From a virus (taxonomy: Duplodnaviria > Caudoviricetes): DNA of 64,000 nucleotides. How positions within the stretch are numbered: position 1 is the first letter of the stretch; every line of letters starts with the position of its first letter. The position numbers and the translations under genes are program-made. The notes under the pieces are model-generated. The model ran no database searches. It had not been told where the DNA came from and saw only the letters and a list, made by a program, of their open reading frames with translations. Location of the stretch: positions 895-64,894 of the IMG/VR virus record IMGVR_UViG_3300037264_002561. One strand, given 5' to 3'. This document shows, in pieces, positions 30,709 to 45,418 of this stretch.

Positions 30709-31245
30709 ATGGGGTTCATTCGCAAACAGCGCCAGCGAACCTTTGCCGTGGTCACGGTCAAAGACGGTATCCAGGCAATCGTGTCCCTGGGGCAGAACTA
30801 CGAGTACCCAGAAGGTTCTCTCGATCCTGGGTATCCGGAGCCGGTCCCTCTCACCCCGGGAGAGTTCTACGTGGACATCGAAGACAAGTTAGTCGGTGGT
30901 GTCACCCAGGCAACTTTCCGGGAGAAGAACGTCCCCGAGTTCGTCGGCGGCGTTCCGACGGGGTGGAAGACTCGCGAGAAGGTATCCTGTGAAGAACTGG
31001 AGAAGCCTTCAGGAGACGGAGTTCTCGTCGGAAAGGCGCGGTTCCGTGGGCCTTCCAATGCTCCTGTCGTGGTCTCTCGTTCCGGATCCGTCGTCTTGGC
31101 CCAGTCCAACCCGCAGTCCTTCGATGGTGCTGGCGTCTTGGAACTTCGATACAAAGTCTATGGGGCCGGCTACTCCCTCACCGTCTCCAGCCCCGGAGGG
31201 TCCGCGGGTACCCTGGAGCAGGCAGCGGCTCCTGGAGCATTCTGA
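30709..31245 (+). CDS. Hypothetical (possible fibre assembly) protein
   Basis: GAGG RBS; follows fibre gene. Confidence 0.6.
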   Translation: MGFIRKQRQRTFAVVTVKDGIQAIVSLGQNYEYPEGSLDPGYPEPVPLTPGEFYVDIEDKLVGGVTQATFREKNVPEFVGGVPTGWKTREKVSCEELEKPSGDGVLVGKARFRGPSNAPVVVSRSGSVVLAQSNPQSFDGAGVLELRYKVYGAGYSLTVSSPGGSAGTLEQAAAPGAF

Positions 31246-31273
31246 ACTTGTAACCGGTTACGCAGGAGGCCCT

Positions 31274-31801
31274 GTGGCCGTCGACATCCTCGAGCAGATG
31301 TACCAGAGGGTCCCAGTTCCCCAGACCTTCAAGGAACTACAGCAGACTTTCACCGTTCCTGCGTTTGCTGATGACCCGCGTGCCCCAGGTCGGGTCATCC
31401 TCGATCAGGGATGGGTGACGAAGAACATCGTCTACGAGTGGTTCCCGGGAATCGGCCAGCAGCATGTCCACAAGCACATGGTCTTGCCGCTCTACGATGC
31501 TCTGGCTGAGATTGACCAGGGGCCCGACGCTGGGTACTTCATCCCCCGCCAGTGTGGGGTGTGGGTAGCGCGGAGGAATTTCTGGAAGCCCGATGGACGC
31601 CTCAGCTTCCATGCTCTCGGACTGGCCATCGACGTGAACTGGGATGAGAACCCTGCTGGGGATCGCAAGGGCACGATCTACCAGCACCCGGCGATCATCA
31701 CCACCTTCAAGAAGTACGGCTTCGACTTCGGCGGGGACTGGAAAAAGCCTGACCAGATGCACTTTGGCTACGCGAGTTCGAGGATCTTGCTTCCGAGGTG
31801 A
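31274..31801 (+). CDS. Endolysin, peptidase M15 family
   Basis: R...SFHALGLAIDVN, GFDFGGDW, DQMHF zinc-peptidase motifs; AGGAGG RBS + GTG 31274. Confidence 0.88.
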   Translation: MAVDILEQMYQRVPVPQTFKELQQTFTVPAFADDPRAPGRVILDQGWVTKNIVYEWFPGIGQQHVHKHMVLPLYDALAEIDQGPDAGYFIPRQCGVWVARRNFWKPDGRLSFHALGLAIDVNWDENPAGDRKGTIYQHPAIITTFKKYGFDFGGDWKKPDQMHFGYASSRILLPR

Positions 31802-31805
31802 ACCA

Positions 31806-32036
31806 GTGTATGATCTCGAGAAACTGGACGAAGCGTTCAGCACTCATGGTCTCAATGCCGGGGAGCTGGCACTCTGTCTTGAACTCGAGGCTCGGTTCCG
31901 CCTGATGGCTCGATGGATCCTCGAACACCTACCCCCGGGCCCTCACCGGACTTCGACTATTGACAAACTCATAGCAGCCAAGGACGAAGCGTGCTTGGCA
32001 CTCCTCACGACCCCTCGGCAAAGGAAGGACGTCTGA
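31806..32036 (+). CDS. Acb2/Tad1-like helical-hairpin protein (putative immune-signal sponge)
   Basis: GAGGTG RBS + GTG; F.TH.L...F..MA..I...LP.GP.RT..I.KL..AKD.A..A pattern. Confidence 0.55.
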   Translation: MYDLEKLDEAFSTHGLNAGELALCLELEARFRLMARWILEHLPPGPHRTSTIDKLIAAKDEACLALLTTPRQRKDV

Positions 32037-32037
32037 A

Positions 32038-32646
32038 ATGATGACAGAAGCGAGCTGGCTCCTGCCCTACGTGTGGACTCCGGAAAGTGGACCGAACTGG
32101 GACGTGATCTTCACGTACTGCGTGGTCCTCCTCTTCATCAAGGCCCCCCTGGACAAGATGATCGAGCACCTGATCTCGTTCGTGAAGGCCAAGACAAACG
32201 AGGTCCACTTCACCATTCCCTTGCTCGGCTGGAAGGTCGACTTCAGCCAGTACACCTGGGACGACAAGTTCTGGGACGACGCGAGCGCCATGCTCAAGAC
32301 CAAGGTGCTGGCCAAGCAGAGCGAGGCCGTCAACCTCAAGTTGACCTACAAGGACGCCATGGTGGCAGCCAGCGGCGATCCTGCCAAGATGGAGACCGTG
32401 GCCAAGGAGTACCGGGCCAAGATGGAGCAGCTCACCGCGGATCTCGTCCAGGACGTGAAGATCCATGGGGATCCGGCCCTCTGGCGCGCCCTCGCCTACC
32501 GCCTGGGGGACGAGAACAAGGCAGCCAAGTGGGTGGCCGATAAAGCCAAGGCTATCGTGGAGGCCCACAAGAACGGCCACAAGAGCTGGCTCGAGGCCGT
32601 TGGCGAGGCCCTGAAAGAGGGTGGAGCCGACACGGGAAAAGGCTGA
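32038..32646 (+). CDS. Holin-like membrane protein (LL-H family-like)
   Basis: In lysis cassette; one N-terminal hydrophobic segment then charged helices ending KAKAIVEAHK; AAGGA RBS. Confidence 0.6.
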   Translation: MMTEASWLLPYVWTPESGPNWDVIFTYCVVLLFIKAPLDKMIEHLISFVKAKTNEVHFTIPLLGWKVDFSQYTWDDKFWDDASAMLKTKVLAKQSEAVNLKLTYKDAMVAASGDPAKMETVAKEYRAKMEQLTADLVQDVKIHGDPALWRALAYRLGDENKAAKWVADKAKAIVEAHKNGHKSWLEAVGEALKEGGADTGKG

Positions 32647-33023
32647 TCGGCCGCGAGGGTGGGGTCAAAAACCTCACCCTCGCGCTTTCCAAGACCCTGG
32701 TCCGGGTTCTACACTTGGACCTGCGGGACTACGAGGATGCTACGTTCCTCAAGTTCGCAGCACTCGTCATCAATCGCCTCCTGCTCAAGCTGAAATCTCG
32801 CTACGAGATCCAGGACCGAGAACGGCACGGATCGACCCCACAAGGTCGCCGTGCCGTTCGTGTTCTGGAGGGAGAGATCGTAGAAGATGCCCGTCGGCTG
32901 TACGGAGGCTATCGGGCCTGGAGGGTCAAGACACGTGAGTTCACGGAAGCTGAAGCTGCTGATGCTATGCGGGCTCTCGTGGATGAGTGTGTTCGGATGT
33001 TCTCCGAGGGAGGCTCCCCGTAA
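32640..33023 (+). CDS. Predicted -1 frameshift extension of holin-like gene
   Basis: G-GGA-AAA at 32634-32640; -1 frame open to TAA 33021-33023; the frame's own TTG (32715) has no RBS. Confidence 0.55.
   Translation, partial: RLIGREGGVKNLTLALSKTLVRVLHLDLRDYEDATFLKFAALVINRLLLKLKSRYEIQDRERHGSTPQGRRAVRVLEGEIVEDARRLYGGYRAWRVKTREFTEAEAADAMRALVDECVRMFSEGGSP
32652..32684 (+). other. 14-bp stem-loop (frameshift stimulator and/or terminator)
   Basis: CGCGAGGGTGGGGT-CAAAA-ACCTCACCCTCGCG, one G-U pair. Confidence 0.7.
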
Positions 33024-33390
33024 TCCGATTACGGCGAAGCTAGTCGAGCCGACGATCGAGAGCACCATCGGTCACTTCGAGGGCGAGAAGCTCCACAACT
33101 CGACCGAGAAGACCTACCGGCTTCCCAACATCGGGGCCTTCGCCAGCTACTTTCCTCGTACCAGATCGATTGCCAGTGGCCTCCTCGTCGAGCTCTACGA
33201 CAAGAAGCAGAAGCGAGGCCTCTTCAACTGGTTCAAGTACGACCTCCACGTGTCCGAGCAACGGCTTGGGCTGGCGGTTGGGCGCAAGATCTTCGATCCG
33301 ATCGACGGAACGGCGAGCATCGTCTACTCCCGAGACTTCGATCGGCGACAACATACCTGGGGCCTGGCGTTCAGCCTGGTCAAGTTCTAG
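32935..33390 (+). CDS. Putative lipoprotein with C-terminal amphipathic beta strands
   Basis: GGAGG RBS + GTG; MSSRKLKLLMLCGLSWMSVFG-C lipobox-like; ends TWGLAFSLVKF. Confidence 0.6.
   Translation: MSSRKLKLLMLCGLSWMSVFGCSPREAPRNPITAKLVEPTIESTIGHFEGEKLHNSTEKTYRLPNIGAFASYFPRTRSIASGLLVELYDKKQKRGLFNWFKYDLHVSEQRLGLAVGRKIFDPIDGTASIVYSRDFDRRQHTWGLAFSLVKF
33019..33033. repeat. Dispersed palindrome copy 5 (CGTAATCCGATTACG)
   Basis: Perfect; supplies TAA stop of frameshift ORF and is read as RNPIT in lipoprotein. Confidence 0.88.
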
Positions 33391-33399
33391 GAGGACTAC

Positions 33400-34104
33400 G
33401 TGGACTTCAACAACCTCCCGCCGTGGCCCGCGGTTCCCATCTGGCACCGTGCTGGCTTCTTCCTGGCGGCGCACGGGATCACCAACGTCAACGACATCGA
33501 AGACGGTGACACCGAGATCGAACTGAGCGCCTTCCCGGCGAATATGTTCGCCCCCGTCATCGACATCCCCGGGCACGTAGCCGACGAGCCGGCAGTGGGC
33601 AAGGGGATGCGGATCGTGATCGGAGTTGGGACGGACGACGAGCAAGAGGTCCAGATCAAGGACTTCCAGGCCGACCCAGCCCTCGTCATCATCCTGGACT
33701 CTCCCGTCGTCCTGGCCATCCCCGCCGTTCCGATCCCAGGGGGAACAGAAGTCAGGATGGCCGACAGCCCGGTCATCTACACGGGGGACCAGGACGCGGC
33801 GATCTACATCAAGGCCGTGGCTCACGCTCTCGATGATCGTGGGGGTGCCGTCAACGCGGCAGCGATGAACCTGGCGTTCGAGACCCATATGGCCGACAAC
33901 CAGGAGGCTGACGACTTCCACGTCCCCGATAGCCTAGCTCTCCCGGGGGGACTCGATCTGACTGCCGCGGTCGCGGCTCCCCCGGATCGGGTGACGTCGG
34001 ACACTCTTATCCTCCCCCCCTTCCAGTACTTCAAGCTCGTGCCGACCGCTGGCACGTTCAATTCGGTTTTCTCGCTCTACATGATCCGGAGGTCCCCGCG
34101 ATGA
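33400..34104 (+). CDS. Probable virion structural protein (no signal peptide)
   Basis: AGGAGG RBS; carries small beta domain shared with sheath and gpI. Confidence 0.7.
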   Translation: MDFNNLPPWPAVPIWHRAGFFLAAHGITNVNDIEDGDTEIELSAFPANMFAPVIDIPGHVADEPAVGKGMRIVIGVGTDDEQEVQIKDFQADPALVIILDSPVVLAIPAVPIPGGTEVRMADSPVIYTGDQDAAIYIKAVAHALDDRGGAVNAAAMNLAFETHMADNQEADDFHVPDSLALPGGLDLTAAVAAPPDRVTSDTLILPPFQYFKLVPTAGTFNSVFSLYMIRRSPR

Positions 34105-34523
34105 GCAAGTTCTTCTTCGCGATCTTCATCTCGATCCTTCTGCTCACCTCTGGAGTCATGGCCGAGGAGCAGGGTCTCAAGATGACCCCACGCCATGTCA
34201 GCGCGGCTTCGATGATCCCGACGTCGGTAACGACCTTCATCTTCGACAACCTGAGTGGTTCGACCTTCCACAGTCTCGCGACTTTCGTGTCGTCGACCGA
34301 AGTGGTCGATCTCGAGATCGACGTCTCGGTCGGCTTCAAGTCCGGCGGGGTGTACTACTTCGCCCCTGCTCCCAACGCTACGGATCTGACCGCCACGGGG
34401 GCTAGCCCCGTGTCTACCGTCTGGCCCCTCACCATTCCTGTCGCTCCGGCCGTGAAGATCGAAATCCTCAACAACGGCGTTGGGGACCTGATCGTCGACC
34501 ACCTCTTCCTCACCACGAGCTGA
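34101..34523 (+). CDS. Exported beta-rich protein
   Basis: Signal peptide MSKFFFAIFISILLLTSGVMA-EE; ATGA overlap. Confidence 0.75.
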   Translation: MSKFFFAIFISILLLTSGVMAEEQGLKMTPRHVSAASMIPTSVTTFIFDNLSGSTFHSLATFVSSTEVVDLEIDVSVGFKSGGVYYFAPAPNATDLTATGASPVSTVWPLTIPVAPAVKIEILNNGVGDLIVDHLFLTTS

Positions 34524-34538
34524 TAGAGAGGAACTCCA

Positions 34539-36254
34539 ATGAACCGCCTCCTTCCAGTCCTCCTCCTGCTGATCGCGAGCCTCACCTTCGGGTGGGATGG
34601 TGGGTACCCAGGTCAGGGGACTGGGAGCGGGCCTGCCGGGTCGACAACTCTCCAGGACGCCTACAACAACAGCCCGGCTCCGAAAACCTTGAACATCCCG
34701 GCTGCCGCCGATCTGACGTTCGAGTTGGAGTTGAACGCTAATTTCCGTCTCCGGGAACCTGGGGCTGGAGAAACCTTCCTCCAATGCACCTACACCGGCA
34801 TCGACGAGATCACGACTCTCGAGTCCATGACCCTCAGCTACAGCAGCTCGACTTTCCCTGATGAGGTTTGGCTGCTCCGGAATACTTACTGGGACAAGTA
34901 TTCACTCAATGTCACCGACACCAACTTCGACGTCGGGTTCAACCTCGGGGGCGAGGGTGGCTCGTTCCGAGTCCTCGACAGGTTTAGCTCCGCCACTGTC
35001 CTTGAGGCCACTTCGACGACATTCGACCTGAGCGGCACGCTCGAGGTCGATACGATCACCAACAAGGCGGGGACGGGTGCGCCGAACGCAACCTACGGCA
35101 TCGCCGGTATCATCATCGAAGACACCATCGGGTCCGGGGCGACCGGCTACCCACTGGTGGCGGATGCTGCGGGCGATCCGACGTACGTCGCCACCTCCGT
35201 GATCGAGCTGGTGGACCTCAACTCCAAGACCAATGGCACCAACGCGTCGGCGACTCAAGTGCCGATCGCGAACGGGTCTGGTGGAATAACGTGGGGAGCG
35301 GCTGGAACGAGCTTCATCCCGGGGCTGCTCACGCCGAAGCTCGGCGGTAGCGGTGCCGACGGTGTCGGTCCAGCGACCACCGGGAACCTCGACACGGGCA
35401 ATCTCAAACAGTACTCCTCGTGGACGATCAATGCCGGCGAGACAATCACGCTGACCAACGCTGGCGGCGTCTCGCGCGTAACGGTCTCAGGGAACTGCAC
35501 CATCAACGGCACCCTGACGGCGACAGGCAAGAGCCCGATTACGGTCAGTCTGGGAAGCGCTTCTGGCAGCGCCTCGGAGCACCAGACGCGCGTGCCCCCG
35601 ATCAGCACCTCGGCGACCGCTACGCTATGGGACCTAGACGGTAACTGCACCGATCTCCGGCTCGGCGGTGGTGGCGGTGGTGGAGCTCGCCTCACGAGCG
35701 GCACGAGCGGCAATGGTGCCAACACGCGGATCATCTCGTTCGGCGGAAACGGGCGCGCGAACACCTTTGGTGCGGGCCGCGCGAACGACGGGGTGGGCGC
35801 TGCCGCAGCAGCGCCCACGAACCTGTCGAACCTGCGGCTGTACGCGGCCAATGCTAGCTGGTACATGCTCGGGCTCTGCCCAGGAGGACCGGGCGGTGGC
35901 GGCGGTTGCGGGATCCTGTCCGGGGCGGCAGATGGCACCGGCTCGAACGGCGGTCTCGGTGGGGGTGTCATCGTCCTGGAGGTCGGTGGGACTCTCACGA
36001 TAGGAGCAGCCGGTGTCGTTGCCGCCAACGGCAATGCAGGGAGCAACGGCGGTGCCGGTGCGAGTGTCGGGGGCGGTGGTGGCGGTGGTGGAGCCGGTGG
36101 GCGGATCCTGCTCCGGGCCCCCACGATCGCGAACTCCGGCTCGGTCACGGTCGCCGGTGGTGCTGCCGGCGCCGCCGGCACCGGGGTAACCTATGCCGGC
36201 GGTGCCGGGGCAGCGGGCGAGACCGGCCTATCCTTGGTCGAGGTCGTGCAGTGA
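34539..36254 (+). CDS. Fibre/adhesin-like protein with signal peptide and glycine-rich C-terminal domain
   Basis: MNRLLPVLLLLIASLTFG-WD; GGGGGGG runs typical of polyglycine-II adhesin tips; GAGGA RBS. Confidence 0.8.
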   Translation: MNRLLPVLLLLIASLTFGWDGGYPGQGTGSGPAGSTTLQDAYNNSPAPKTLNIPAAADLTFELELNANFRLREPGAGETFLQCTYTGIDEITTLESMTLSYSSSTFPDEVWLLRNTYWDKYSLNVTDTNFDVGFNLGGEGGSFRVLDRFSSATVLEATSTTFDLSGTLEVDTITNKAGTGAPNATYGIAGIIIEDTIGSGATGYPLVADAAGDPTYVATSVIELVDLNSKTNGTNASATQVPIANGSGGITWGAAGTSFIPGLLTPKLGGSGADGVGPATTGNLDTGNLKQYSSWTINAGETITLTNAGGVSRVTVSGNCTINGTLTATGKSPITVSLGSASGSASEHQTRVPPISTSATATLWDLDGNCTDLRLGGGGGGGARLTSGTSGNGANTRIISFGGNGRANTFGAGRANDGVGAAAAAPTNLSNLRLYAANASWYMLGLCPGGPGGGGGCGILSGAADGTGSNGGLGGGVIVLEVGGTLTIGAAGVVAANGNAGSNGGAGASVGGGGGGGGAGGRILLRAPTIANSGSVTVAGGAAGAAGTGVTYAGGAGAAGETGLSLVEVVQ

Positions 36255-36376
36255 TGCTGGCCGCGTGCATTGCTGCTGTGCTGGTTGTGGCGTGGTGGAT
36301 GGACGAGCGCGCCATGCGATCAGCGGAACGGAAGCGGGAAGTCACGCTGGCCATGTTACTCGGGCGGTGGCCATGA
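36254..36376 (+). CDS. Small membrane peptide (40 aa)
   Basis: Overlaps stop/start codons on both sides; MLAACIAAVLVVAWW. Confidence 0.5.
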   Translation: MLAACIAAVLVVAWWMDERAMRSAERKREVTLAMLLGRWP

Positions 36377-36726
36377 CCCTGCTCATCGGAACGGGCCTGA
36401 TCGTCCTGGGCGCTGCCCTGTGGGCGGACTATCGTGACGACGAGCGCAAGCGCATCGCGGGCTCGACCTATGAACTGCCCGAGCGGCCCGACATCCAGGG
36501 GCACGCCATCACCATCATCAACGCTCACGACGGGGTACTAACGGTCACAACTCCTAGCGTGGCAATCGAGTGCCAACTTCTATGGGTGGACACAAACGGC
36601 AAGCCGGTCCGTGGCTGGAACGCGGACGCGTCGGTGCGGCTCACTTACCAGGGTGCTGGAGTCACGCTCTACCGAGAGAACGGCTCGTGGCTCGGGTTTC
36701 CGCACGGACTCGGAGTGGAGGACTGA
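36373..36726 (+). CDS. Small membrane-anchored protein
   Basis: ATGA overlap; MTLLIGTGLIVLGAALW. Confidence 0.6.
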   Translation: MTLLIGTGLIVLGAALWADYRDDERKRIAGSTYELPERPDIQGHAITIINAHDGVLTVTTPSVAIECQLLWVDTNGKPVRGWNADASVRLTYQGAGVTLYRENGSWLGFPHGLGVED

Positions 36727-36727
36727 A

Positions 36728-37159
36728 ATGAAGCGCCTGCTGCTGATCCTGTGCCTAGCCCTGGCGACCACCGCCCAGGCCGCGCGACCGCCAACCCCGC
36801 TGGCTGCCCACGACGCCCGGCGTGCTGCCGACCGCTCAATCCTGTCGGCCCCGGGGCACCTCCGGGACCAGTGGTGCGTGCCTGCCTCGGAAGCCGCCCT
36901 GCGGTCCTGGGTCAAGTCTGGGGGGACCGGCTGGCTCCTGGAGATCGAGGGCACCAGGTACCACCAGGGGCACGCCATGACCTGGCTGGAGGGGCCCCCG
37001 GAGTACGCCCCGGGCGGCTGGTACATCGACCCCCGGCAGGGCTCGGCCAGGGGCGGGGGGACCATCCTGGAGTGGGCGCCTTCCCCCGAGGTGGCCATCC
37101 GCCGGTACCGCAACCGGCCGGGGATCCCGCGGGCGTGGAGCAAGCCCTACCCATGGTGA
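36728..37159 (+). CDS. Exported transglutaminase/papain-like (Cys-His-Asp) protein
   Basis: Signal MKRLLLILCLALATTAQA-AR; DQWCV, QGHAMTW, WYIDP; GGAGG RBS. Confidence 0.55.
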   Translation: MKRLLLILCLALATTAQAARPPTPLAAHDARRAADRSILSAPGHLRDQWCVPASEAALRSWVKSGGTGWLLEIEGTRYHQGHAMTWLEGPPEYAPGGWYIDPRQGSARGGGTILEWAPSPEVAIRRYRNRPGIPRAWSKPYPW

Positions 37160-37284
37160 CCGCGGTTGGCCTGATCGTCCTCGGTGTAGTGGCGGTACTG
37201 TTTCTGGCTTCCTACATCGACCAAGATGACGAAATGGAACGGACGGAAGTTCCGCCGCTGAGTCGGAGGAAGAAGGACCGATGA
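37153..37284 (+). CDS. Small membrane peptide (43 aa)
   Basis: MVTAVGLIVLGVVAVLFLA; overlaps both neighbours. Confidence 0.5.
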   Translation: MVTAVGLIVLGVVAVLFLASYIDQDDEMERTEVPPLSRRKKDR

Positions 37285-39743
37285 AGAAGATCCTCTGGTT
37301 CGTCGCAATCATCCTCTGCTCTTCAAGTGTCCTGGCTGGCTCGTACACGACCAACCTGAACCTCTACAAGCCCAGTGTGGGGGAGGTCGGATACGGGGCG
37401 CTCGTCTCCAACAACTTCCAGAAGGTCGACGACGGGGCTTGCATCTTCTCTTCTACCGTTCCTGCCCTGTCGGTCGTCGGTGACATGGTCTATATCGACG
37501 GCGTTGATACTGCTGCACTCTCGAAAGCAGATGCCGCTCTGACCGCAGTAGTCCAAGGGGTGATCGTCGAGAAGATGACGGGGACGACCGCGCGAGTGCG
37601 GACTTGTGGACGCATCGAGGGTCTGGCTGGTCTGACACCAGGAGCCGATTATTACCTGAGCGCGGCCACAGCCGGGAAGATCACGGCAACAGCTCCAGTG
37701 GCCCCCAACAAGGTGGTGAAAATCGGCCGGGCCAAGAACGCTACAACTCTCGCCCTCGCCAACTCAATCATCGAAGATCCAGCTTCCCTGGCGAGCGGCG
37801 ATCTCCAAACCGTCTACGACAACAGCCTCTCGGGAGCCAACATCGACCTCGATCTCGGGGGTGACATCACCATCCGCTCGAACGCGTCGGCCCCATTCGC
37901 TTCGTTCGATGAAACGGAAGAGGCTCAGTATCTCACGAGACTTCTTGGGTTCGATGGAGCCACCCTCGATCTCGAGGCGGCAGCCGGAGAAGACATCCTC
38001 ATGACCAGCGATGGGGGTACGGCACGGCTCGAGAACACGGGCGAATTCGTCCTGAGCTTTTCTGTGGTCTCCCCTCTCTTCAGTTCCTACGCCGGCACCG
38101 ATACGATCGTCCAGGCCCCGGTCGGTCAGGCCGTCGTCCTCAGAGACGCCAGCTCGAACCCCAGGGTGACGGTACTCGCCGTGGGATCGACTTCCGTGAC
38201 GGGGGACTTGAACGTCTCCAACGAAGTCACATCCCTCAATGTCGACTCGGTGGACGCTACGATCTCGAACACCGCCACGATCATGCACGCCAACGTCGAT
38301 CGCTTGGCTCAATCCATGGGCTCTTACACGATCGCTGGGGGGGAGATCACTCTCGGAAATCACGGCTTCCTCATGATCGATACCGAGGGCGCTGCCGCGA
38401 CTGACGACCTCGATACGATCAATCCTCCTGGTGGTCTCGCCAATGGAACCAGGATCATGCTCCATGCGGTCGATCCTGCCCGGTTGGTAGTCCTCAAGGA
38501 TGGGACGGGAAATCTCAATCTCGGCGGAGCCAATCGGGTGCTCGAGTCGGGGATTACCAAAGAGCTGGTCTGGCACGATGACCACTGGACGATCATCTTG
38601 CCGTTCGGAGTCGGGACGGCCGTCGTTTCTCCAGGTGTATCGACCGAACATGCTATCGCGCGCTGGGCCAATGGGAACGGCGTCGAGATCGAAGATTCGG
38701 AAACGATCCTCTTCGATGATGGCGTGGCCCTCTTTCCCACCAACGTGATCGTGGAGGGGGCGCTCTTCGCGGGTCGTTCGGCCGACGGGTCTGAAACCAC
38801 AAGCGGAACGATCTACCTCAGCGGTCGAGCCGGCAACCAGACTTTAATGATCGACGCCCGAACTTCCTCGGGTACCGATGTGGCCGGACGGGACTCTTTC
38901 TCGTTCTTTGGTCCTACGAGCCCAGGTTCCCCAGCCTCGATCGAGTCTCTTCGGATTACCACGACAACTCTGGTAGTCCCTAACGCTACCTTCCAGACTC
39001 CCGCGGCCGGGGTATTTCGGATCCTGGCCAATGCTTCGCGAGCCATTTCTATTCGTGCTGGGGCTGGAGCGAGTGCAGATATTCAGGCCGATGGCGGGAG
39101 TGGAGCTATTCTCAGTCTCAACCCAAGTGCCGGAGCAGCTAGTTTCTCGGCGTGTTCTGTACTGGGTACCGTCTCTCAGTTCAGTCTGGATACTGATGGG
39201 GGACTCACTTCGGCCCAAGGAATCATCGACATCGGTGTTGTTGGTGGAGGCCCATCCTTCCGTCTCCGGACTGACAATAACGGAGCTGGCAACTACGACA
39301 AGTTCTCGATCCGGGGACCGGCTAGTCCCGCCGTAGGTGGGTCCGTAGAGATGATGGAGCTGACCACCGCCACGGTCATCGCCCCCCTGGACCTGGAGGT
39401 CAATGGTTGGTCTGGGATGGGTACGACCGAACAAGCCTTCGTTCTCGGAGCTGGCGTCACAGCGACTCCATCACTCACCAAGCGGTATGTGGTCATCTCC
39501 GCTGATGCGGGCGGTAACACCCTTCTCACGGCCCCCTGTACGAACTGCCAAGAGAGTGATGAGCTCGTCCTCGAGAAGGGCGACGCGGACTTCCTCGCTC
39601 TCGATGGAGTGGCTAGCCCAGGGGCCGATGCCTTTGGCTTCTGGCAGGGTGGAGATTGTATCCTGTCGGGTATCAACTCGATGGCGATCCTTCATCGCAC
39701 AAGCGGCGGCTACTGGAAGGTGAAGTCGTGCAATCAGTCCTGA
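37281..39743 (+). CDS. Large tail-fibre-like protein with signal peptide
   Basis: MKKILWFVAIILCSSSVLA-GSYTTNLNLYKP...NNFQKVD fibre-type N-terminus; GLTPGADYYLS; IDTEGAAATDDLDTI. Confidence 0.8.
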   Translation: MKKILWFVAIILCSSSVLAGSYTTNLNLYKPSVGEVGYGALVSNNFQKVDDGACIFSSTVPALSVVGDMVYIDGVDTAALSKADAALTAVVQGVIVEKMTGTTARVRTCGRIEGLAGLTPGADYYLSAATAGKITATAPVAPNKVVKIGRAKNATTLALANSIIEDPASLASGDLQTVYDNSLSGANIDLDLGGDITIRSNASAPFASFDETEEAQYLTRLLGFDGATLDLEAAAGEDILMTSDGGTARLENTGEFVLSFSVVSPLFSSYAGTDTIVQAPVGQAVVLRDASSNPRVTVLAVGSTSVTGDLNVSNEVTSLNVDSVDATISNTATIMHANVDRLAQSMGSYTIAGGEITLGNHGFLMIDTEGAAATDDLDTINPPGGLANGTRIMLHAVDPARLVVLKDGTGNLNLGGANRVLESGITKELVWHDDHWTIILPFGVGTAVVSPGVSTEHAIARWANGNGVEIEDSETILFDDGVALFPTNVIVEGALFAGRSADGSETTSGTIYLSGRAGNQTLMIDARTSSGTDVAGRDSFSFFGPTSPGSPASIESLRITTTTLVVPNATFQTPAAGVFRILANASRAISIRAGAGASADIQADGGSGAILSLNPSAGAASFSACSVLGTVSQFSLDTDGGLTSAQGIIDIGVVGGGPSFRLRTDNNGAGNYDKFSIRGPASPAVGGSVEMMELTTATVIAPLDLEVNGWSGMGTTEQAFVLGAGVTATPSLTKRYVVISADAGGNTLLTAPCTNCQESDELVLEKGDADFLALDGVASPGADAFGFWQGGDCILSGINSMAILHRTSGGYWKVKSCNQS

Positions 39744-40243
39744 AGATCCTCCTGGCACTGTGTCTGGCTTGCGCCTCTTGGGCCGATGGTCAATACGCGG
39801 TTTATGGCGAGGTCTGCCACACAGGTGACATCGCCGATACCGCTTTCGTCGGGATCGCCACCTACCCGAGCCTGACGAGCGTGGCGAGTGCCGCTCAACT
39901 CAACTGTGGGCTCTCCATCGGTGCTCCCTTCGTCACCACCTCAACCGGATCCATCACCATTGGAGCTCTCGGTGGAGGTTTGTACAAAGTCGTCGCTGTC
40001 TGTTCTTTCTCTGGAACGACCAACGCCACCTACCACATGGTCGTGACCAAAGGGGGGTCGAACGCGATGATCGAAGGTGAACGGAAATTCGCCACGGGAA
40101 CAGACACCAATGGTCTTACGGCCCAGGGTCTTCTTCGTCTCGTGAGCACCGACGTTCTCACCTTGGCGTTCGGGGCTGATGCTCCGGCCAAGGACGTCAC
40201 GATCAACCACATGCGATTGGTAGTCCAGAGGATTGCCCCATGA
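39728..40243 (+). CDS. Exported beta-sandwich (C1q/BclA-like) protein
   Basis: GGAAGGTG RBS + GTG; MQSVLKILLALCLACASWA-DG; GLYKV...GLLRL...D.L pattern. Confidence 0.65.
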   Translation: MQSVLKILLALCLACASWADGQYAVYGEVCHTGDIADTAFVGIATYPSLTSVASAAQLNCGLSIGAPFVTTSTGSITIGALGGGLYKVVAVCSFSGTTNATYHMVVTKGGSNAMIEGERKFATGTDTNGLTAQGLLRLVSTDVLTLAFGADAPAKDVTINHMRLVVQRIAP

Positions 40244-40293
40244 TCGGCAACCCCACTTCTTTCAACAGATCCCATGTCCACAAGGAGGACATT

Positions 40294-41607
40294 ATGCGTC
40301 ACCTGATCCTGACCCTCGCCCTCTTCGTGGGCGCCATCGGGGGTCTCTCCGCCGCCCCCAACGACATCGAAACCTTCCTCGATACCACCGTTCGTCGCAA
40401 TCTCACTACGAAGAACCTCACCGTGACGGGGACGTTCTCGATCTCGGGTTCGCTTGCCAATACCGAGATCCGCAGCGGTCGGTACATGAAGTCGCTCGAC
40501 GAAACGGCCAACGCCATCCCCTTCCGCATCAACACCTCGAACACCGCCGGCTTCGGACAGGGAACGGCCGGCAACCCTGCCCTGATGCGCGGGAGTGCCC
40601 CCCAGGTCGAGGCCGCCAATGGCGAGACCTACGTGGGAACCGAACTTCTCGTGGACAAGGGAGGTACCGGGACTGAGTCCTGGATCGGGTTCTCGGGAGC
40701 AGTTGTCGGAAACAACGCTTCCACGAAGCTCGACATGACGGGCAACTCCCTCGTGGTCAAGGTGGCCGGCAGCCCAGCGTTGCCGAGTTCGGTCGAAGCT
40801 CTCGTAGCGACCAGCGCGACTCTCGAGATCCCCGGGAGCATCCACCTCGACAAGGGTGGCACGGGTACCGGAGCCGTCATCTTCTTCAGCGGCCCGGCCG
40901 ACACCAGCGAATCGTCCTGGCTCGACGGGGCTGGGAACCGGCTCACCGTTGAACTGGCGGGGGATCCCGGATCCCCCGGTTCGGTGACGGCTCTTACCGT
41001 GACGAGCACAAGCATGTCGACCGTAGCCGATGTCTCGGTCGGCGATGACCTCACCGTAACGGGCGACGCCGACTTCAGTTCCTCGGTCGCCGTCAAGTTC
41101 GGTTCCAACGTCCCCACGATGGTGACGAGCAAGACGATCTGGATCCCCGCCTCCGACTTCGCCCTACCTTCGGCTAACCCGGCCGCTGTGTCGGAGCAAG
41201 GATCGGGGTACACCCTTGCCTTTGCCGATGCCGCCACCGACGACTTCGCCTGGTACACCTGGGGGATCCCCGACGACTTCGACAAGACCGGCTCCTTCAT
41301 CTTCGTCAAGCCGGTTTACAACATCCCCAGTGGCACCGTGGAAGAGGGCAAGTGGGACTTGGCCTACGCCAGTTATGCTGATGGTGGCGCCGACTCGGCC
41401 CCCGCTGGAGAGGTGACGACCCTCGATACCCCCTCCGGGAACGACAAGTGGGACGTCTCGGCGGAGCTCCAGCTCCCTAAGGCAGCCGTCGGTGCGAGCA
41501 CCAAGCTCATTGACCTCTATTTGAGCCATGACGTCGCCAACGCCTTCGGTGGCACGGTGCACCTCAAGGGCGTCCTCCTCACCTACACCACGTCGAAGAA
41601 CTACTGA
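40294..41607 (+). CDS. Fibre-like protein with signal peptide and internal 65-aa repeat
   Basis: AAGGAGG RBS; MRHLILTLALFVGAIGGLSA-AP; DKGGTGT twice (40654, 40849). Confidence 0.8.
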   Translation: MRHLILTLALFVGAIGGLSAAPNDIETFLDTTVRRNLTTKNLTVTGTFSISGSLANTEIRSGRYMKSLDETANAIPFRINTSNTAGFGQGTAGNPALMRGSAPQVEAANGETYVGTELLVDKGGTGTESWIGFSGAVVGNNASTKLDMTGNSLVVKVAGSPALPSSVEALVATSATLEIPGSIHLDKGGTGTGAVIFFSGPADTSESSWLDGAGNRLTVELAGDPGSPGSVTALTVTSTSMSTVADVSVGDDLTVTGDADFSSSVAVKFGSNVPTMVTSKTIWIPASDFALPSANPAAVSEQGSGYTLAFADAATDDFAWYTWGIPDDFDKTGSFIFVKPVYNIPSGTVEEGKWDLAYASYADGGADSAPAGEVTTLDTPSGNDKWDVSAELQLPKAAVGASTKLIDLYLSHDVANAFGGTVHLKGVLLTYTTSKNY

Positions 41608-42334: not shown

Positions 42335-43207
42335 GTGGCTATCACCCGACTGCCACAGATCGAGGCGGGCCGAAGGCCCGCCTTTGAGTCTTTCAAGTCG
42401 CTTCCATCTCACACGGCTGGCGCTTTGGGAACTTGGCTTTATTCACCGGGCTTTCCTATGGGCGGGGAGAGTCATATACCGGCGGTTGGTCCTGCTGGAG
42501 AAGCTCTAGTTAGTCACCCAGGTCAAGTCCCTTTCCAAAACCCTCCGAGTGGGATGAATGCCTACCTAACTGGGTTCGCGCTTTCGGCGAACAACGCGGG
42601 TGGGGCAACATTTCTGTGTGATCGCTTGTGGCACAACGGGGGAGTTGTTCGCGAGACTGTGACGGAGCAGGCTATTGATTCGGTGATCTTCCCGCCGAGA
42701 GATCGAAACGGGGCGGTTGATGGGGAGGGGGTTCTTATCGGCCTTGAAGTACCGTTCTTCGTTTGTCTTGCGTCGCTAACACTAGCTGCTCCGTTCCCAA
42801 CTATCAGGTATACAAACTCCCAGGGCGTTCCAAATCGTGTCGGGACGTTGTTCTCAATGGCTATCAATGCTCCTACTCCCGGTACGATGGTAGGAGCATT
42901 TGGGGTCTTTGCCCTGGATCTTGGGGATACTGGAGTTCAATCCATTCAAGGATTGACGCTCGCGAATAGTGGGTTTGTCACGGTTACAGGTTCCCCCGTT
43001 GCTTCCACTTCCATCCACCTCGTTGCTTACCGTGTTCTGGCGATGCTCCCAGGAAGAGGAGCTACAGCACAACGGGCAAAAGAATCCATGGATCCTATGG
43101 CTCTTTGTATGCCTCGGCTCTACGACAACACCGTGCCATTCTTCATCCGGCTCGCCGCTGTCTCGGTTGGTCAGGCTTACGGAACTATCCAGACGGCTCA
43201 AGGATAA
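42335..43207 (+). CDS. Virion appendage protein, paralog 1 of 3
   Basis: DRLWHN, P.RD..G, PRLYDNTVPF shared with next two genes. Confidence 0.75.
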   Translation: MAITRLPQIEAGRRPAFESFKSLPSHTAGALGTWLYSPGFPMGGESHIPAVGPAGEALVSHPGQVPFQNPPSGMNAYLTGFALSANNAGGATFLCDRLWHNGGVVRETVTEQAIDSVIFPPRDRNGAVDGEGVLIGLEVPFFVCLASLTLAAPFPTIRYTNSQGVPNRVGTLFSMAINAPTPGTMVGAFGVFALDLGDTGVQSIQGLTLANSGFVTVTGSPVASTSIHLVAYRVLAMLPGRGATAQRAKESMDPMALCMPRLYDNTVPFFIRLAAVSVGQAYGTIQTAQG

Positions 43208-43210
43208 GTC

Positions 43211-44053
43211 GTGGCAATAGCAACCCTCCAACAGCTCATAGACGGGCTACAGCCCATCGAGGAAGCAACGAAGACGGGTGTTACAGCCGAAGCCGCAGCC
43301 GTTCTCCAGAGCCTTTGGTACGCTGCTGGGCGACCAGCCGCGGCGGCAGCTCCAGCTCCGGGCTTGGCAGGAGCCGCCCTCACTTCGGATGCAGGGCAGA
43401 TCCCCTTCCGAAATCCTGCGGGCGGGAGTAACGCTTACCTTGCGAAGTTGGCGTGCAATCAAGTTATCCTAGGGCCCATTTTTCTCGCTGATAGGCTCTG
43501 GCACAACTCTGGTCTCGATGTTACGCTCGCCACTGTTCAAGCCGTCAACTCTGTTGCCTGGCCCGCTCGCGATCAGGATGGCTCCACGGGTGGCAACGGA
43601 GTCATGGTCGGTATTGAGGTTCGTACTGCCACGACCAACGCGGCGGCTGTTCTAAACGCCACCCTCGACTACACAAACTCTGCGGGCACTCCCGGTCGCA
43701 CAGGGACCATCCTGCCAACTACGGGCATTCCTGCTACGGCTGTAGCCGGCACCTTCATCCCCTTCATGCTCGCTGCTGGAGATGCTGGTATTCGCTCCAT
43801 CCAGAACATCACCCTGGGCACCAGCTTGGGAGCGGGAGCAATCCACCTCGTTGCCTACCGTGTGATAGCTATGGCGGGGGGAGAGTTTATACTTTCACCC
43901 TTCGGCCTGACCCCGTTAGCAGAGTTTGATCGAGACCCGGTTTCTCTTGGTCTGCCCCGTCTTTACAACAATACGGTCCCTTTCTTTCTGAGACTGGCGG
44001 CGGCCGTTACCGCCTCAGCGGCGTATTACCGCTTTCAACTCGCGCACGGATAG
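43211..44053 (+). CDS. Virion appendage protein, paralog 2 of 3
   Basis: Same motifs as paralog 1. Confidence 0.78.
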   Translation: MAIATLQQLIDGLQPIEEATKTGVTAEAAAVLQSLWYAAGRPAAAAAPAPGLAGAALTSDAGQIPFRNPAGGSNAYLAKLACNQVILGPIFLADRLWHNSGLDVTLATVQAVNSVAWPARDQDGSTGGNGVMVGIEVRTATTNAAAVLNATLDYTNSAGTPGRTGTILPTTGIPATAVAGTFIPFMLAAGDAGIRSIQNITLGTSLGAGAIHLVAYRVIAMAGGEFILSPFGLTPLAEFDRDPVSLGLPRLYNNTVPFFLRLAAAVTASAAYYRFQLAHG

Positions 44054-44062
44054 GAGTCTCTT

Positions 44063-44881
44063 ATGGCCATCGTAGACCTTCACGGCCTCATCGCTGGTTT
44101 CCTTTCTCCCGAGGAGATCGTCAAGGGCGGCGTAACCATGGAGGCGGCTGCCGTCCTCCATAGCCACTTCTACGCGCCTGGTCGGCCTGGTGCGGCTATC
44201 GCTCCCACTCCTGGAGTGGCAGGGGCAGCCTTGACGGCTTACGCAGGACAAGTCCCGTTCACAAACCCCACAGGTGGGGAGTTTTCCTACCTGGCAGGTT
44301 TTCGAGTAGCTGCTACGATTGCCGGGAGCTTTATGCTCCTCGACCGTCTCTGGCACAACTCAGCTCTTGTTGTGACGACAACTACCCCCCAAGCCGTCAA
44401 TTCCGTCGCCTGGCCCGCTCGCGATCAGGATGGGGCCGTTGACGGCAAGGGGGTTATGGTCGGCATCGAGGTCAGCACTGCGACAACCAATGCTGCTGCC
44501 ATCACGACGATGACTTTGGGCTACACCAACTCCGCTGGCGTGCCTGGACGTGTTGGGACAGTCCTGCCCACCACAGGCTTCCCAGCTACCGCAATCGCGG
44601 GCACCTTTGTCCCCTTCCTGCTAGACGCTGGAGACGTTGGTGTGCGGTCCATTCAGAACGTCACGTTGGCAACGAGCCTTCTGACTGGTGTGGTTCACCT
44701 TGTTGCGTATCGCACTCTAGCCCGCGTGGATGTTCCGCTTGCGAACACGGGAAACTTCATCGACGCCAACACTGGGGGCCTCCCTCGGCTCTACGACAAC
44801 ACCGTGCCATTCCTTGTTCAACTTCCTTCGGCTGTCTCGGCCACCAACATCTATGCTGCGATGGTAGTAGCCCAGGGGTAA
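44063..44881 (+). CDS. Virion appendage protein, paralog 3 of 3
   Basis: Same motifs as paralog 1; AGGAG RBS. Confidence 0.78.
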   Translation: MAIVDLHGLIAGFLSPEEIVKGGVTMEAAAVLHSHFYAPGRPGAAIAPTPGVAGAALTAYAGQVPFTNPTGGEFSYLAGFRVAATIAGSFMLLDRLWHNSALVVTTTTPQAVNSVAWPARDQDGAVDGKGVMVGIEVSTATTNAAAITTMTLGYTNSAGVPGRVGTVLPTTGFPATAIAGTFVPFLLDAGDVGVRSIQNVTLATSLLTGVVHLVAYRTLARVDVPLANTGNFIDANTGGLPRLYDNTVPFLVQLPSAVSATNIYAAMVVAQG

Positions 44882-44884
44882 CTC

Positions 44885-45418
44885 GTGTCGGACATTGCTG
44901 GTCTTGGAGCGTTCCCGTTTAATTCGAGTTGGGTACTTCGCACGTCTCTGATGGCAGGCACGTCGATGGTTGGCTCGACCACGGACCTTCAGCGCGTCAG
45001 TCAGGATTTCTTCCTGGCACCATACACGGCCGCGGTTTCGATTACGGCCCCCGATGACCCCCCAACGGCCGTTTTCACGGATGAAGGATCCATAGCGAGG
45101 ACGTTCGCGGATGTCGATGCGAGCCCAGTTGCATCTTTCAGCGATGTCTCATTGTTCTCACGTACCCGGGCCAATGATACGTTCGTGATGGCGTTCTTCG
45201 AGGACGAGTCCTCCTTCTTCCAAGAAGCCCGTTTCTCGCATACCATGGATGGAGTTGTCGTCTTCTCGGACCTCTCGTCTCATCTGCGGTCGATCGTCAA
45301 TCCGACGGCCATAACGAGCGCCGGCCAAGAGGGTGCAGTTCAAGTACTATTCAAGGCCGAAGAACCGATCGAGGTCGTGATCGGCGAAGTCCTTCCATTC
45401 AATGAGGAGAGACGATGA
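44885..45418 (+). CDS. Hypothetical appendage-module protein
   Basis: Tightly packed; short internal repeats (A.F.D..S). Confidence 0.6.
   Translation: MSDIAGLGAFPFNSSWVLRTSLMAGTSMVGSTTDLQRVSQDFFLAPYTAAVSITAPDDPPTAVFTDEGSIARTFADVDASPVASFSDVSLFSRTRANDTFVMAFFEDESSFFQEARFSHTMDGVVVFSDLSSHLRSIVNPTAITSAGQEGAVQVLFKAEEPIEVVIGEVLPFNEERR

What the first reader, a model, noticed from the sequence alone, without database searches (positions are those of the whole stretch)
34101..41607. Cluster of tail-fibre-like proteins that carry Sec signal peptides
Seen: six genes in a tightly coupled late-region block start with classic n-h-c signal peptides (34101 ...GVMA-E, 34539 ...LTFG-W, 36728 ...TAQA-A, 37281 ...SVLA-G, 39728 ...ASWA-D, 40294 ...GLSA-A), whereas none of the core structural genes do. 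The predicted mature proteins look like phage fibres: 37281 begins right after cleavage with the fibre-type motif SYTTNLNLYKP...NNFQKVD, 34539 ends in a polyglycine adhesin-like domain, and several contain multiple Cys. Known: tailed-phage virions assemble in the cytoplasm and fibres normally lack signal peptides. Inference: a possibly undescribed extracytoplasmic arm of morphogenesis (appendages folded or disulfide-bonded in the periplasm and added at lysis), or exported receptor-blocking decoys or cell-surface adhesins.
Basis: partly seen in the sequence, partly recalled or inferred. Interest (0 to 1): 0.87.

Follow-up and report, generated by a model that had tools for sequence, protein, structure and literature searches.

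The report
Phage fibre proteins carrying export signals
A tailed phage encodes a block of fibre-like proteins that each start with a secretion signal, so parts built like virion fibres seem to be sent out of the cytoplasm, where tailed-phage particles are normally assembled.

Summary
In a 64.9 kb virus contig, six of eight consecutive late genes (34101-41607) start with short n-h-c leaders that have Shine-Dalgarno sites and -3/-1 cleavage motifs. No gene from portal to baseplate has one.

The leaders look functional:
- Eleven diverged relatives of the 820-aa protein D all carry a leader, with a valid cleavage site in the same alignment column.
- A near-identical copy of protein A (119/122 identical) has a completely different leader, swapped at the predicted cleavage site.

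The mature proteins are built from virion modules:
- D has an N-terminal motif that leaderless phage proteins carry at residue 2, once in a tail-fibre slot.
- D also has a beta-tulip domain like capsid decoration proteins and the phi29 head-fibre base.
- E models as a C1q/TNF-like homotrimeric knob.

Function is unresolved. I favour periplasmic maturation with attachment to particles at lysis (0.4) over non-virion envelope or surface fibres like Bdellovibrio MAT adhesins (0.35). Caveats: no SignalP run, host unknown, A, B, C and F are near-orphans, and most relatives' contigs could not be fetched.

The parts
34101..34523 (+). Protein A, 140 aa. Leader is residues 1-21 (VMA|EE); the mature protein is about 119 aa, beta-rich, with no Cys.
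   Evidence: The start overlaps the upstream stop by 4 nt. The same start is used in the protein collection. P0186 from another assembly is 119/122 identical from the cleavage region onward but has an unrelated leader. No Pfam, PHROG or NCBIfam family.
34539..36254 (+). Protein B, 571 aa. Leader is residues 1-18 (TFG|WD); the C-terminal third is Gly-rich (20% Gly overall); 5 Cys.
   Evidence: The ATG lies 15 nt after A's stop and has an AGAGAGG site upstream. The source gene call instead starts at TTG 34689, giving 521 aa without a leader. The only relative, P0184 (E 3.6e-4, matching the Gly-rich end), also has an N-terminal leader.
36373..36726 (+). TM1, 117 aa. N-terminal hydrophobic segment without a positively charged n-region, followed by LWA|DY.
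36728..37159 (+). Protein C, 143 aa. Leader is residues 1-18 (AQA|AR); the mature protein is basic, with 1 Cys.
   Evidence: Starts 1 nt after TM1's stop, with GGAGTGGAGG upstream. No family hit.
37153..37284 (+). TM2, 43 aa. N-terminal TM segment with a charged tail; shares the GLIVLG core with TM1.
37281..39743 (+). Protein D, 820 aa.
- Leader: residues 1-19 (37281-37337).
- Fibre N-motif GSYTTNLNLYKP...NNFQKVD: residues 20-51 (37338-37433).
- Beta-tulip-like domain: residues about 54-161 (37440-37763).
- Phage_depo_C-like module: residues 349-441 (38325-38603).
- Cys-containing C-terminal end.
39728..40243 (+). Protein E, 171 aa, GTG start. Leader is residues 1-19 (SWA|DG); the mature part is a C1q/TNF-like jelly-roll predicted to form a homotrimer.
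   Evidence: start and SD; ipSAE 0.92, best control 0.00, pLDDT at least 86, at least 91% of contacts shared between runs. AF2 pLDDT 52, pTM 0.52. Fold matches. Atlas lead to C1q.
40294..41607 (+). Protein F, 437 aa. Leader is residues 1-20 (LSA|AP); contains a tandem repeat of about 57 aa; no Cys.
   Evidence: only itself in 5.8 billion proteins; repeat score 118 against shuffles 32.5 +/- 5.7. AAGGAGG lies upstream.
32935..33390 (+). Neighbouring lipobox protein (VFG|C), 151 aa. It lies outside the finding but is the only other leader-bearing gene. It may be lysis- or outer-membrane-related.

Best explanation
What the sequence shows. A 7.5 kb stretch, 11.6% of the contig, sits in the late operon of a contractile-tailed phage, just downstream of the M15 endolysin. 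It encodes six proteins with Sec-type cleavable leaders and two small N-terminally anchored membrane proteins. At least D and E are made of virion-fibre modules. D carries a fibre N-terminal motif, a beta-tulip base and a depolymerase-type C-module. E is a C1q/TNF-like trimeric knob.

Inferred with good support (about 0.8). The leaders send these proteins through SecYEG. Signal peptidase I then cuts at the -3/-1 sites. For D this leaves GSYTTNLNLYKP, which is in register with the N-terminus that leaderless fibres of the same motif have after Met removal (for example GSTTTNYNLYKP).

Inferred, favoured but unproven. The proteins fold and trimerise in the periplasm of a diderm host. They meet the cytoplasmically built particles only when holin, endolysin and spanin break the envelope. 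D then docks by its conserved N-terminal motif and beta-tulip base, like a head-fibre or decoration protein that binds finished capsids from outside. The other exported proteins would serve as further appendages or tips. This would be an extracytoplasmic branch of tailed-phage morphogenesis.
For: 1. Leaders are clustered and well placed. Six of 8 block genes have one against 1 of 62 others, and all have SD sites and tight coupling to neighbours.
2. An exhaustive HMMER search with D residues 1-170 gave 2120 hits. Eleven representatives, D included, align from the N-terminus. All 11 have an n-h-c leader of 16-21 residues (P0039 counted from its internal Met). All 11 obey the -3/-1 rule in the same alignment column.
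3. Leader swap: A and P0186 are 119/122 identical from residue 19 on, while residues 1-18 are unalignable.
4. The motif sits at residue 2-3 of four leaderless IMG/VR phage proteins. In L001 that gene follows baseplate hub, wedge (J), an I-like protein and a tail-collar-fibre-like gene. It is 45% identical to D over residues 18-74.
5. D residues 49-165, the only confident part of the model (pLDDT 70-88), give 16 of the top 16 VIA matches to capsid decoration or cement proteins or to phi29 fibres. Examples: HFTV1 8qsy_JI Z 9.9, rmsd 3.1, 104 aa; BB1 8.9; Pam3 8.7; phi29 gp12 C-fragment 7.7; phi29 gp8.5 base 6.7. MoeA appears lower in the list.
6. [quoted passage not shown] It also states that Dec binds mature P22 capsids in vitro and that such proteins aid host attachment.
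7. E: homotrimer score 0.92 against a best control of 0.00 (21 of 30 solved pairs of one chain reached the mark, 0 of 23 single chains), pLDDT at least 86, at least 91% of contacts shared between runs. Its fold matches PRD1 P5 (Z 9.8, rmsd 2.5, 116 aa), cyanophage tail-fibre domains and TNF/C1q proteins.
8. The family has a conserved N-terminal part of about 170 residues and mosaic C-terminal halves, as receptor-binding fibres do.
9. The cluster recurs. L005, part of a 58 kb contig, has a D homologue with three further leader-bearing ORFs within 4 kb upstream.
10. No promoter or terminator signal above chance separates the block from the late genes.
Against: - No tailed phage is known to me to export a virion protein (recalled). 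Five literature searches found none. The prior for this reading is therefore low.
- Nothing here shows that any of these proteins is in a virion.
- The beta-tulip-like domain also occurs repeated or at the C-terminus in many fibre-like proteins. It may be only a trimerisation module and not a capsid binder.
- D gets no Pfam or PHROG hit itself.
- Export is judged by my own heuristic, not by SignalP or experiment.
- B's leader depends on a start that the source's gene caller did not choose.
- The structure models are weak: D has mean pLDDT 42.5, and E by AF2 has 52.
- A, B, C and F have no informative relatives.
- The host, and hence whether it has a periplasm, is unknown. L005 is only presumed to be a phage.
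- Assembly after lysis would be diluted and inefficient (inference).
Confidence: 0.4

Rival explanations
1. The proteins are exported but never join virions. They stay in or on the envelope of the infected cell as trimeric fibres. They could act as adhesins that tie the infected cell to neighbours, as receptor or debris masks, or as superinfection exclusion factors. The design matches Bdellovibrio MAT fibres.
For: - Phage-encoded exported non-virion proteins are common (T5 Llp, T4 Sp and Imm, lambda Bor; recalled).
- P. gingivalis phages carry unknown genes with signal peptides, read as outer-membrane modifiers (PMC10367356, passages).
[quoted passage not shown] They have variable tips and are surface-localised (PMC10769870, passages). 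D's family has the same layout.
- E's model also matches the Bd2734 tip, weakly (rank 36, E 1.4e-3).
- Seven of the 139 other listed proteins that share D's beta-domain also have leaders. Exported fibres with this domain therefore exist beyond D's family.
Against: - The block is co-oriented and coupled with late structural and lysis genes in a phage with no integrase seen. Exclusion genes are usually early or lysogenic (recalled).
- A Sec leader alone does not cross an outer membrane, and no secretion-system tag was seen.
- No domain is shared with the phage's own leaderless baseplate proteins. This argues against a mask that copies the phage's receptor-binding domain.
- The virion-type N-motif is as conserved between D and a leaderless tail-module protein (45%) as it is within the family.
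- Homology to the MAT N-domain was not tested.
Confidence: 0.35
2. The hydrophobic N-termini are uncleaved signal anchors. They tether the fibres to the outer face of the cytoplasmic membrane. There the fibres could serve as an assembly or lysis-linked platform, possibly together with TM1 and TM2.
For: Two true N-terminal TM proteins are interleaved with the six. The h-regions of D and F reach 15 uncharged residues.
Against: - The hydrophobic runs are 12-15 residues, shorter than typical TM helices.
- All have small residues at -3/-1, and 11 of 11 D relatives keep that site in one column.
- The A/P0186 swap breaks at the predicted cleavage site.
Confidence: 0.12
3. Artefact. The starts are mis-called and the true proteins begin downstream, or hydrophobic N-termini arose by chance in a GC-rich genome.
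For: The source gene call for B starts 50 codons downstream. E uses a GTG start, and its exact sequence was not found in the collection.
Against: - D has no alternative in-frame start.
- SD sites precede all six leader starts.
- Independent calls agree for A, C, D and F.
- Leaders are conserved in 11 of 11 relatives.
- Clustering has p = 1.5e-6.
Confidence: 0.04

Closest known systems
phi29 head fibre gp8.5 and beta-tulip capsid decoration or cement proteins (lambda gpD, P74-26 gp87, Pam3, BB1, HFTV1)
   Same: D residues 49-165 model as the same fold (Z 6.7-9.9). As in gp8.5, the domain is N-terminal and is followed by a long distal part. Such proteins bind finished capsids from outside and can aid host attachment (PMC7602432, passages).
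   Different: None of these has a signal peptide. D has an extra N-motif, gets no Pfam hit itself, is 820 aa and is encoded after the lysis genes. Capsid binding is untested.
Leaderless phage fibre proteins with the N-terminal motif (L001 5354-6112; L002-L004)
   Same: They carry the same motif at the mature N-terminus: 45-61% identity over D residues 18-50 or 18-74. The L001 gene sits in a baseplate and tail-fibre module.
   Different: They start directly with Met plus the motif, while D's family has a 16-21-residue Sec leader in front. They are shorter (252-411 aa). Only four were found.
Bdellovibrio bacteriovorus MAT fibre adhesins
   Same: Layout of signal peptide, then a conserved beta-rich N-domain, then a trimeric fibre with variable tips. 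They use phage-derived modules and are surface-exposed (PMC10769870, passages).
   Different: They are chromosomal genes of a predator, not of a phage. Their N-domain is reported to have no PDB homologue, whereas D's has many. Homology was not tested here.
Exported phage proteins: spanins, T4 Sp and Imm, T5 Llp, lambda Bor; P. gingivalis phage genes with signal peptides
   Same: Phage genes with Sec or lipoprotein leaders that act in the envelope (recalled; PMC10367356 passages).
   Different: Those are small and not fibre-like. Here there are six in a row, up to 820 aa, built from virion modules.
Filamentous phage coat and adsorption proteins (pVIII, pIII)
   Same: Virion proteins that are Sec-exported and cleaved by signal peptidase before assembly (recalled).
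   Different: Those phages assemble at the membrane by extrusion. This one is a contractile-tailed phage with a lysis cassette. There is no homology.

Membership tests
Sec/SPase I (type I) signal peptides | Short positively charged n-region, uncharged hydrophobic h-region of about 7-15 residues, small residues at -3 and -1, total length about 16-30 residues, no Cys at +1 | tested here: met
   My own heuristic finds this in all six. In D's family the rule holds for 11 of 11 members in one alignment column. SignalP was not available.
Sec/SPase I (type I) signal peptides | Actual translocation and cleavage | not testable with these tools
   Indirect support only: the leader swap at the predicted site in A versus P0186.
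Fibre N-terminal motif family (unnamed; L001-L004 type) | Motif T-x-L-x-L-Y-x-P-x-x-G-E-x-G-[YW]-G ... N-F ... D near the N-terminus | tested here: met
   tblastn gives 45-61% identity over D residues 18-50 or 18-74. N-termini were read.
Fibre N-terminal motif family (unnamed; L001-L004 type) | Motif directly follows the initiator Met, and the gene lies in the tail or baseplate module | tested here: not met
   D has a 19-residue leader in front of the motif. It lies about 6.6 kb downstream of the last baseplate-module gene, beyond the endolysin.
Beta-tulip decoration/cement proteins (Pfam Phage_cement_2 PF09956; gp8.5 base) | Beta-tulip fold | tested here: met
   VIA Z 6.3-9.9 for the top 16 rows, all phage capsid or fibre proteins, over model residues 49-165. 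That part of the model has pLDDT 70-88.
Beta-tulip decoration/cement proteins (Pfam Phage_cement_2 PF09956; gp8.5 base) | Sequence membership in PF09956 | tested here: not met
   D has no Pfam family at E <= 0.1. Only 4 of 50 domain relatives hit PF09956, best E 3.6e-6.
Beta-tulip decoration/cement proteins (Pfam Phage_cement_2 PF09956; gp8.5 base) | Binds the capsid at three-fold or quasi-three-fold sites | not testable with these tools
   Not tested. No second copy of the domain is in the window (HMM built from 264 instances).
C1q/TNF-like trimeric knobs (Pfam C1q PF00386) | Jelly-roll fold forming a homotrimer | tested here: met
   E residues 20-171 as three copies scored 0.92 against a best control of 0.00. 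VIA Z 8-9.8 to PRD1 P5, EDA-A1, APRIL, C1q and BclA. Foldseek matches in PDB and BFVD. The AF2 model is low-confidence (pLDDT 52).
C1q/TNF-like trimeric knobs (Pfam C1q PF00386) | Sequence match to PF00386 | tested here: not met
   E has no Pfam family. There is only an Atlas lead, with C1q on 26% of the members of one cluster.
Phage_depo_C (PF25692) | Sequence match above the gathering score | tested here: inconclusive
   D itself gets no hit. Its 45%-identical relative P0002 hits at 26.7 bits against a cut-off of 25, in the aligned region. About 25 tailspike-like proteins match D only in this module.
Bdellovibrio MAT fibres | Homologous ~130-aa N-domain after the signal peptide; S74 chaperone-protease in one subfamily | not tested
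   No full-length MAT sequence was in hand. Only the architecture was compared.
Known superinfection-exclusion, lipoprotein or spanin families | Sequence match to a PHROG, Pfam or NCBIfam model of such a family | tested here: not met
   None of the six matches any family at the thresholds used.

The most novel reading that the evidence does not exclude
Tailed phages of this lineage run part of virion morphogenesis outside the cytoplasm. Fibre and knob proteins are exported by Sec, cut by signal peptidase I, and folded and trimerised in the periplasm, possibly with disulfide bonds. They snap onto finished capsids or tails only at lysis, through a conserved N-terminal motif and beta-tulip base.
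Probability: 0.3. Interest if true: 0.92.

Novelty: new variant of a known kind. Interest (0 to 1): 0.72.

Why it matters
All textbook assembly pathways of tailed phages are cytoplasmic, and fibres are taken to be leaderless. A conserved family that puts a cleavable Sec leader exactly in front of a standard fibre N-terminus means one of two things. Either some virion appendages mature in the periplasm and join particles at lysis, which would be a new assembly route with consequences for host-range engineering, for oxidative folding of receptor-binding proteins and for virion proteomics. Or lytic phages dress their dying host with phage-type fibres, which would be a new kind of host manipulation. 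Both options can be tested directly with export fusions and particle proteomics. The family also warns annotators that 'tail fibre-like' does not imply 'in the virion'.

Tried and rejected
**Searches for relatives and their genomic context**
- No relatives of D, F or the 33400 protein in IMG/VR by single-protein patterns.
- No match for D, E, F or B(1-387) in INPHARED.
- F has no relative in 5.8 billion proteins, and B has only one weak relative.
- Alignment A1 was too diverse for pattern scans.
- A2 found nothing in genome contigs or metagenome contigs.
- P0039 found nothing in genome contigs or viral contigs, and P0036 found nothing in viral contigs.
- The TIG-protein alignment found nothing in viral contigs.
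- The genome search could not draw relatives for a virus record or reach L005's record.
- The contigs of P0033, P0035, P0038 and P0045 (55-119 kb) could not be fetched, so their context is unseen.
- tblastx of L005 against the window gave only sum-statistic noise and was replaced by ORF blastp.

**Ideas tested without support**
- E as a split-off version of the C-terminal knob fused in D's relatives: BLASTP of E against P0002 gave E 0.32, and an HMM of five C-ends did not hit E.
- The 132-aa protein at 41919 as the counterpart of L001's collar-fibre-like gene: no similarity.
- A decoy sharing a domain with the phage's own baseplate proteins: no paralogy.

**Family, structure and signal scans**
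- NCBIfam, Pfam and PHROGs gave nothing for the six.
- PDB sequence search: none for D or B, and only chance-level antibody light-chain matches for F.
- No sigma-70 promoter or terminator signal above shuffles in 29-48 kb.
- No tRNA.

- Five literature searches found no tailed-phage fibre with a Sec leader. The phiCbK paper's only 'signal peptide' match is a title in its reference list, and its periplasm passages concern lysis proteins.
- Supplementary files of the papers were not seen.


Full report
**Context**

The window is bases 895-64894 of a single 64,894-base contig held as a virus record. Its plus strand carries a late operon:
- portal (cut at the contig end), a protease-containing 890-aa protein, and the major capsid protein (phrog_1623, 1e-56);
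- tail tube, tape measure, baseplate J (PF04865, 3.2e-10), and a weak Tail_P2_I-like protein;
- two further proteins (379 and 178 aa), and an M15 peptidase endolysin at about 31220-31801.

The minus strand from 47.3 kb carries primase, a DnaB-like helicase and a UvsX-like recombinase. The capsid protein is at most 34.6% identical to any of 215 matching INPHARED records, so the lineage is poorly sampled. No tRNA was found, and no host could be assigned.

**The observation**

I wrote a simple leader scan. It looks for an uncharged hydrophobic run with mean Kyte-Doolittle of at least 1.7, non-negative net charge before it, and a -3/-1 site after it. I applied it to 70 gene models and to every in-frame start in their first 70 codons.
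- Of 24 printed candidates, runs of 12 or more residues occur only at the six genes, at 32935 (lipobox VFG|C), at 36367/36373 and at 46634. The last two are N-terminal TM proteins.
- None occurs in the 28 models from portal to 30709 or in the 19 minus-strand models.
- Six of 8 block genes against 1 of 62 others gives Fisher p = 1.5e-6.

The block is tightly packed. Gaps between successive genes are -4, 15, 118, 1, -7, -4, -16 and 50 nt, and GGAGG-like sites precede the six leader starts. D's ATG overlaps the preceding stop, and no other in-frame ATG, GTG or TTG lies before the motif.

Gene calls stored in the protein collection use the leader start for A, C, D, F, TM1 and TM2. B was called from a TTG 150 nt downstream that lacks an SD. 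I regard the ATG as more likely, but this is a caveat. E's exact sequence was not found.

**Are the leaders functional?**

Two comparative results say yes.

First, I ran an exhaustive HMMER search of 1.84 billion representatives with D residues 1-170. It gave 2120 hits at E <= 0.001.
- Eleven representatives, D included, align from the N-terminus.
- Every one has a leader of 16-21 residues (P0039 counted from an internal Met), directly followed by the motif.
- At the alignment column before the motif, 11 of 11 have A, S or C at -1 and a small or aliphatic residue at -3.
- Pooled identity is 32% in the leaders and 38% in the next 190 columns. The leaders are therefore conserved in kind and are not markedly more diverged than the rest.

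Second, P0186 from another assembly is 119/122 identical to A from residue 19 on, yet its first 18 residues cannot be aligned with A's. Both versions are n-h-c leaders ending V-x-A before EEQ. A leader exchanged at the predicted cleavage site, on an otherwise almost unchanged protein, is what a separable export signal predicts.

**What are the mature proteins?**

D (820 aa):
Four IMG/VR phage proteins carry it right after the initiator Met.
- In L001 that gene follows baseplate hub, wedge (phrog_6, 6.5e-67), an I-like baseplate protein and a tail-collar-fibre-like gene.
- By the usual rule that Met is removed before Gly or Ser (established knowledge), those proteins begin G-S-T-T-T-N-Y-N-L-Y-K-P or S-G-T-V-T-P-N-L-N-L-Y-K-P. 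D cut at VLA|G begins G-S-Y-T-T-N-L-N-L-Y-K-P, in the same register.
- AlphaFold2 with the 11-row alignment was poor overall (mean pLDDT 42.5) but confident for residues about 54-161 (70-88). It drew the leader as a helix.
- A search of 48,161 PDB representatives put phage capsid decoration or cement proteins and phi29 fibre proteins in all of the top 16 rows (Z 9.9 to 6.3). P23-45 gp88, herpesvirus triplex proteins and MoeA came lower. A review describes the same set as the beta-tulip family, including the N-terminal capsid-binding base of the phi29 head fibre gp8.5 (PMC7602432, passages).
- The domain is widespread, often repeated or C-terminal in collagen-containing fibres. Pfam recognises it only weakly: Phage_cement_2 in 4 of 50, Collagen in 4 of 50.
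- An HMM built from 264 instances finds it only in D within this window.
- Residues 349-441 are a module shared with the C-ends of about 25 pectate-lyase or sialidase-type tailspike-like proteins, which lack leaders. D's relative P0002 reaches Pfam Phage_depo_C there.

E (mature 152 aa):
- It is predicted to form a homotrimer. The score is 0.92 against a best control of 0.00. The mark was reached by 21 of 30 solved pairs of one chain and by 0 of 23 single chains. pLDDT is at least 86, and at least 91% of contacts are shared between runs.
- Its single-sequence AF2 model is weak (pLDDT 52, pTM 0.52). Even so, it matches PRD1 spike P5 (Z 9.8, rmsd 2.5, 116 aa), cyanophage tail-fibre domains, TNF ligands, C1q heads and BclA. 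It also matches C1q and tail-fibre proteins in BFVD (214 hits at E <= 0.001) and in the PDB by Foldseek.

The other four:
- F has a tandem repeat of about 57 residues (score 118 against shuffles 32.5 +/- 5.7). Its language-model features are nearest to viral hypothetical proteins (0.90).
- B's Gly-rich end has one relative, which also carries a leader.
- A and C remain undescribed.

**Recurrence**

P0039 lies on a 58 kb metagenome contig, of which 16 kb (L005) could be read.
- L005 shares with the window only the D homologue and a TIG-domain protein (window 45415-46590; 35% identity over 356 residues), in the same order.
- It has three more SD-preceded leader ORFs within 4 kb upstream of the D homologue.
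- Some of its other genes match PHROG families, so it is probably a related phage. This is not proven.
- Other family members sit on contigs of 55-119 kb that I could not fetch.

**Mechanism**

I consider export by Sec with cleavage by signal peptidase I well supported (about 0.8).

The short leaders and the neighbouring lipobox protein hint at a diderm host (inference).

What the exported fibres do is open.

I favour, at 0.4, that they mature in the periplasm and join particles at lysis.
- The N-terminal motif and beta-tulip base are the conserved part of a family with mosaic C-ends.
- They are as similar to a leaderless tail-module protein as to each other.
- Decoration proteins of this fold bind finished capsids from outside, as Dec does in vitro.
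- The block is embedded in the late operon.

Against this:
- No tailed phage is known to do it.
- Nothing places these proteins in a virion.
- The domain may only be a trimerisation unit.

The main rival, at 0.35, is that they are non-virion envelope or surface fibres.
- Bdellovibrio MAT adhesins have exactly this layout of signal peptide, conserved beta-rich N-domain and variable tips, and are surface-exposed (PMC10769870, passages).
- Phages of P. gingivalis carry unexplained signal-peptide genes (PMC10367356, passages).
- A decoy that copies the phage's own receptor-binding domain is not supported.
- A Sec leader alone would not cross an outer membrane.

Uncleaved anchors (0.12) and artefact (0.04) are less likely, for the reasons given under the rival explanations.

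**Novelty**

Five full-text searches found no tailed-phage fibre or decoration protein with a Sec leader. Supplements and subscription journals were not covered. I file it as a new variant of known kinds, namely phage fibres and phage exported proteins. It would become categorically new if the virion route is shown.

Noticed in passing
window 42335-44881 (+): Three tandem paralogues of 272-290 aa, 41-59% identical to each other, lie just downstream of the block. They have no leader. The first had no PHROG hit and the third no Pfam hit.
   Followed up: partly
window 6341-7690, 13009-15528, 24127-26010 (+): A segment of about 65-70 residues is shared by a 449-aa head-region protein, the 839-aa protein upstream of the tube gene, and baseplate J (36-45% identity, E 6e-8 to 8e-9). 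It is probably a mobile surface domain.
   Followed up: no
window 31220-33390 (+): The M15 endolysin is followed by a 202-aa protein with one weak N-terminal hydrophobic segment, then by a 151-aa lipobox protein that ends in Phe. No clear holin lies next to the endolysin in a 19-residue hydropathy scan. The small TM proteins at 37153 and 46634 are alternative holin candidates.
   Followed up: partly
window 36373-36726 and 37153-37284 (+): Two N-terminal TM proteins with a shared GLIVLG core and an acidic stretch after it are interleaved with the leader genes. Each sits directly upstream of a leader gene (C and D).
   Followed up: no
window 45415-46590 (+); L005 7402-8607: A TIG/IPT-domain protein is the only protein besides D shared with L005 (35% identity). 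The phi29 head fibre binds an Ig-like domain of the coat protein, so this could be D's docking partner. This is an untested lead.
   Followed up: partly
L005 3522-3968: A CheY-like receiver domain gene (PF00072, 4.6e-13) sits directly upstream of the D homologue in the related contig.
   Followed up: no
window 2420-5092 (+): An 890-aa protein combines a head-maturation-protease-like region (residues 366-481, 1.5e-35) with a region matching an RNA-ligase PHROG (residues 153-259, 2.5e-19). This is an unusual fusion next to the portal.
   Followed up: no
window 34539-34689: The source's gene call for B begins at TTG 34689. That leaves 165 nt of high-GC3, SD-preceded open frame, which includes the leader, unannotated.
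   Followed up: yes
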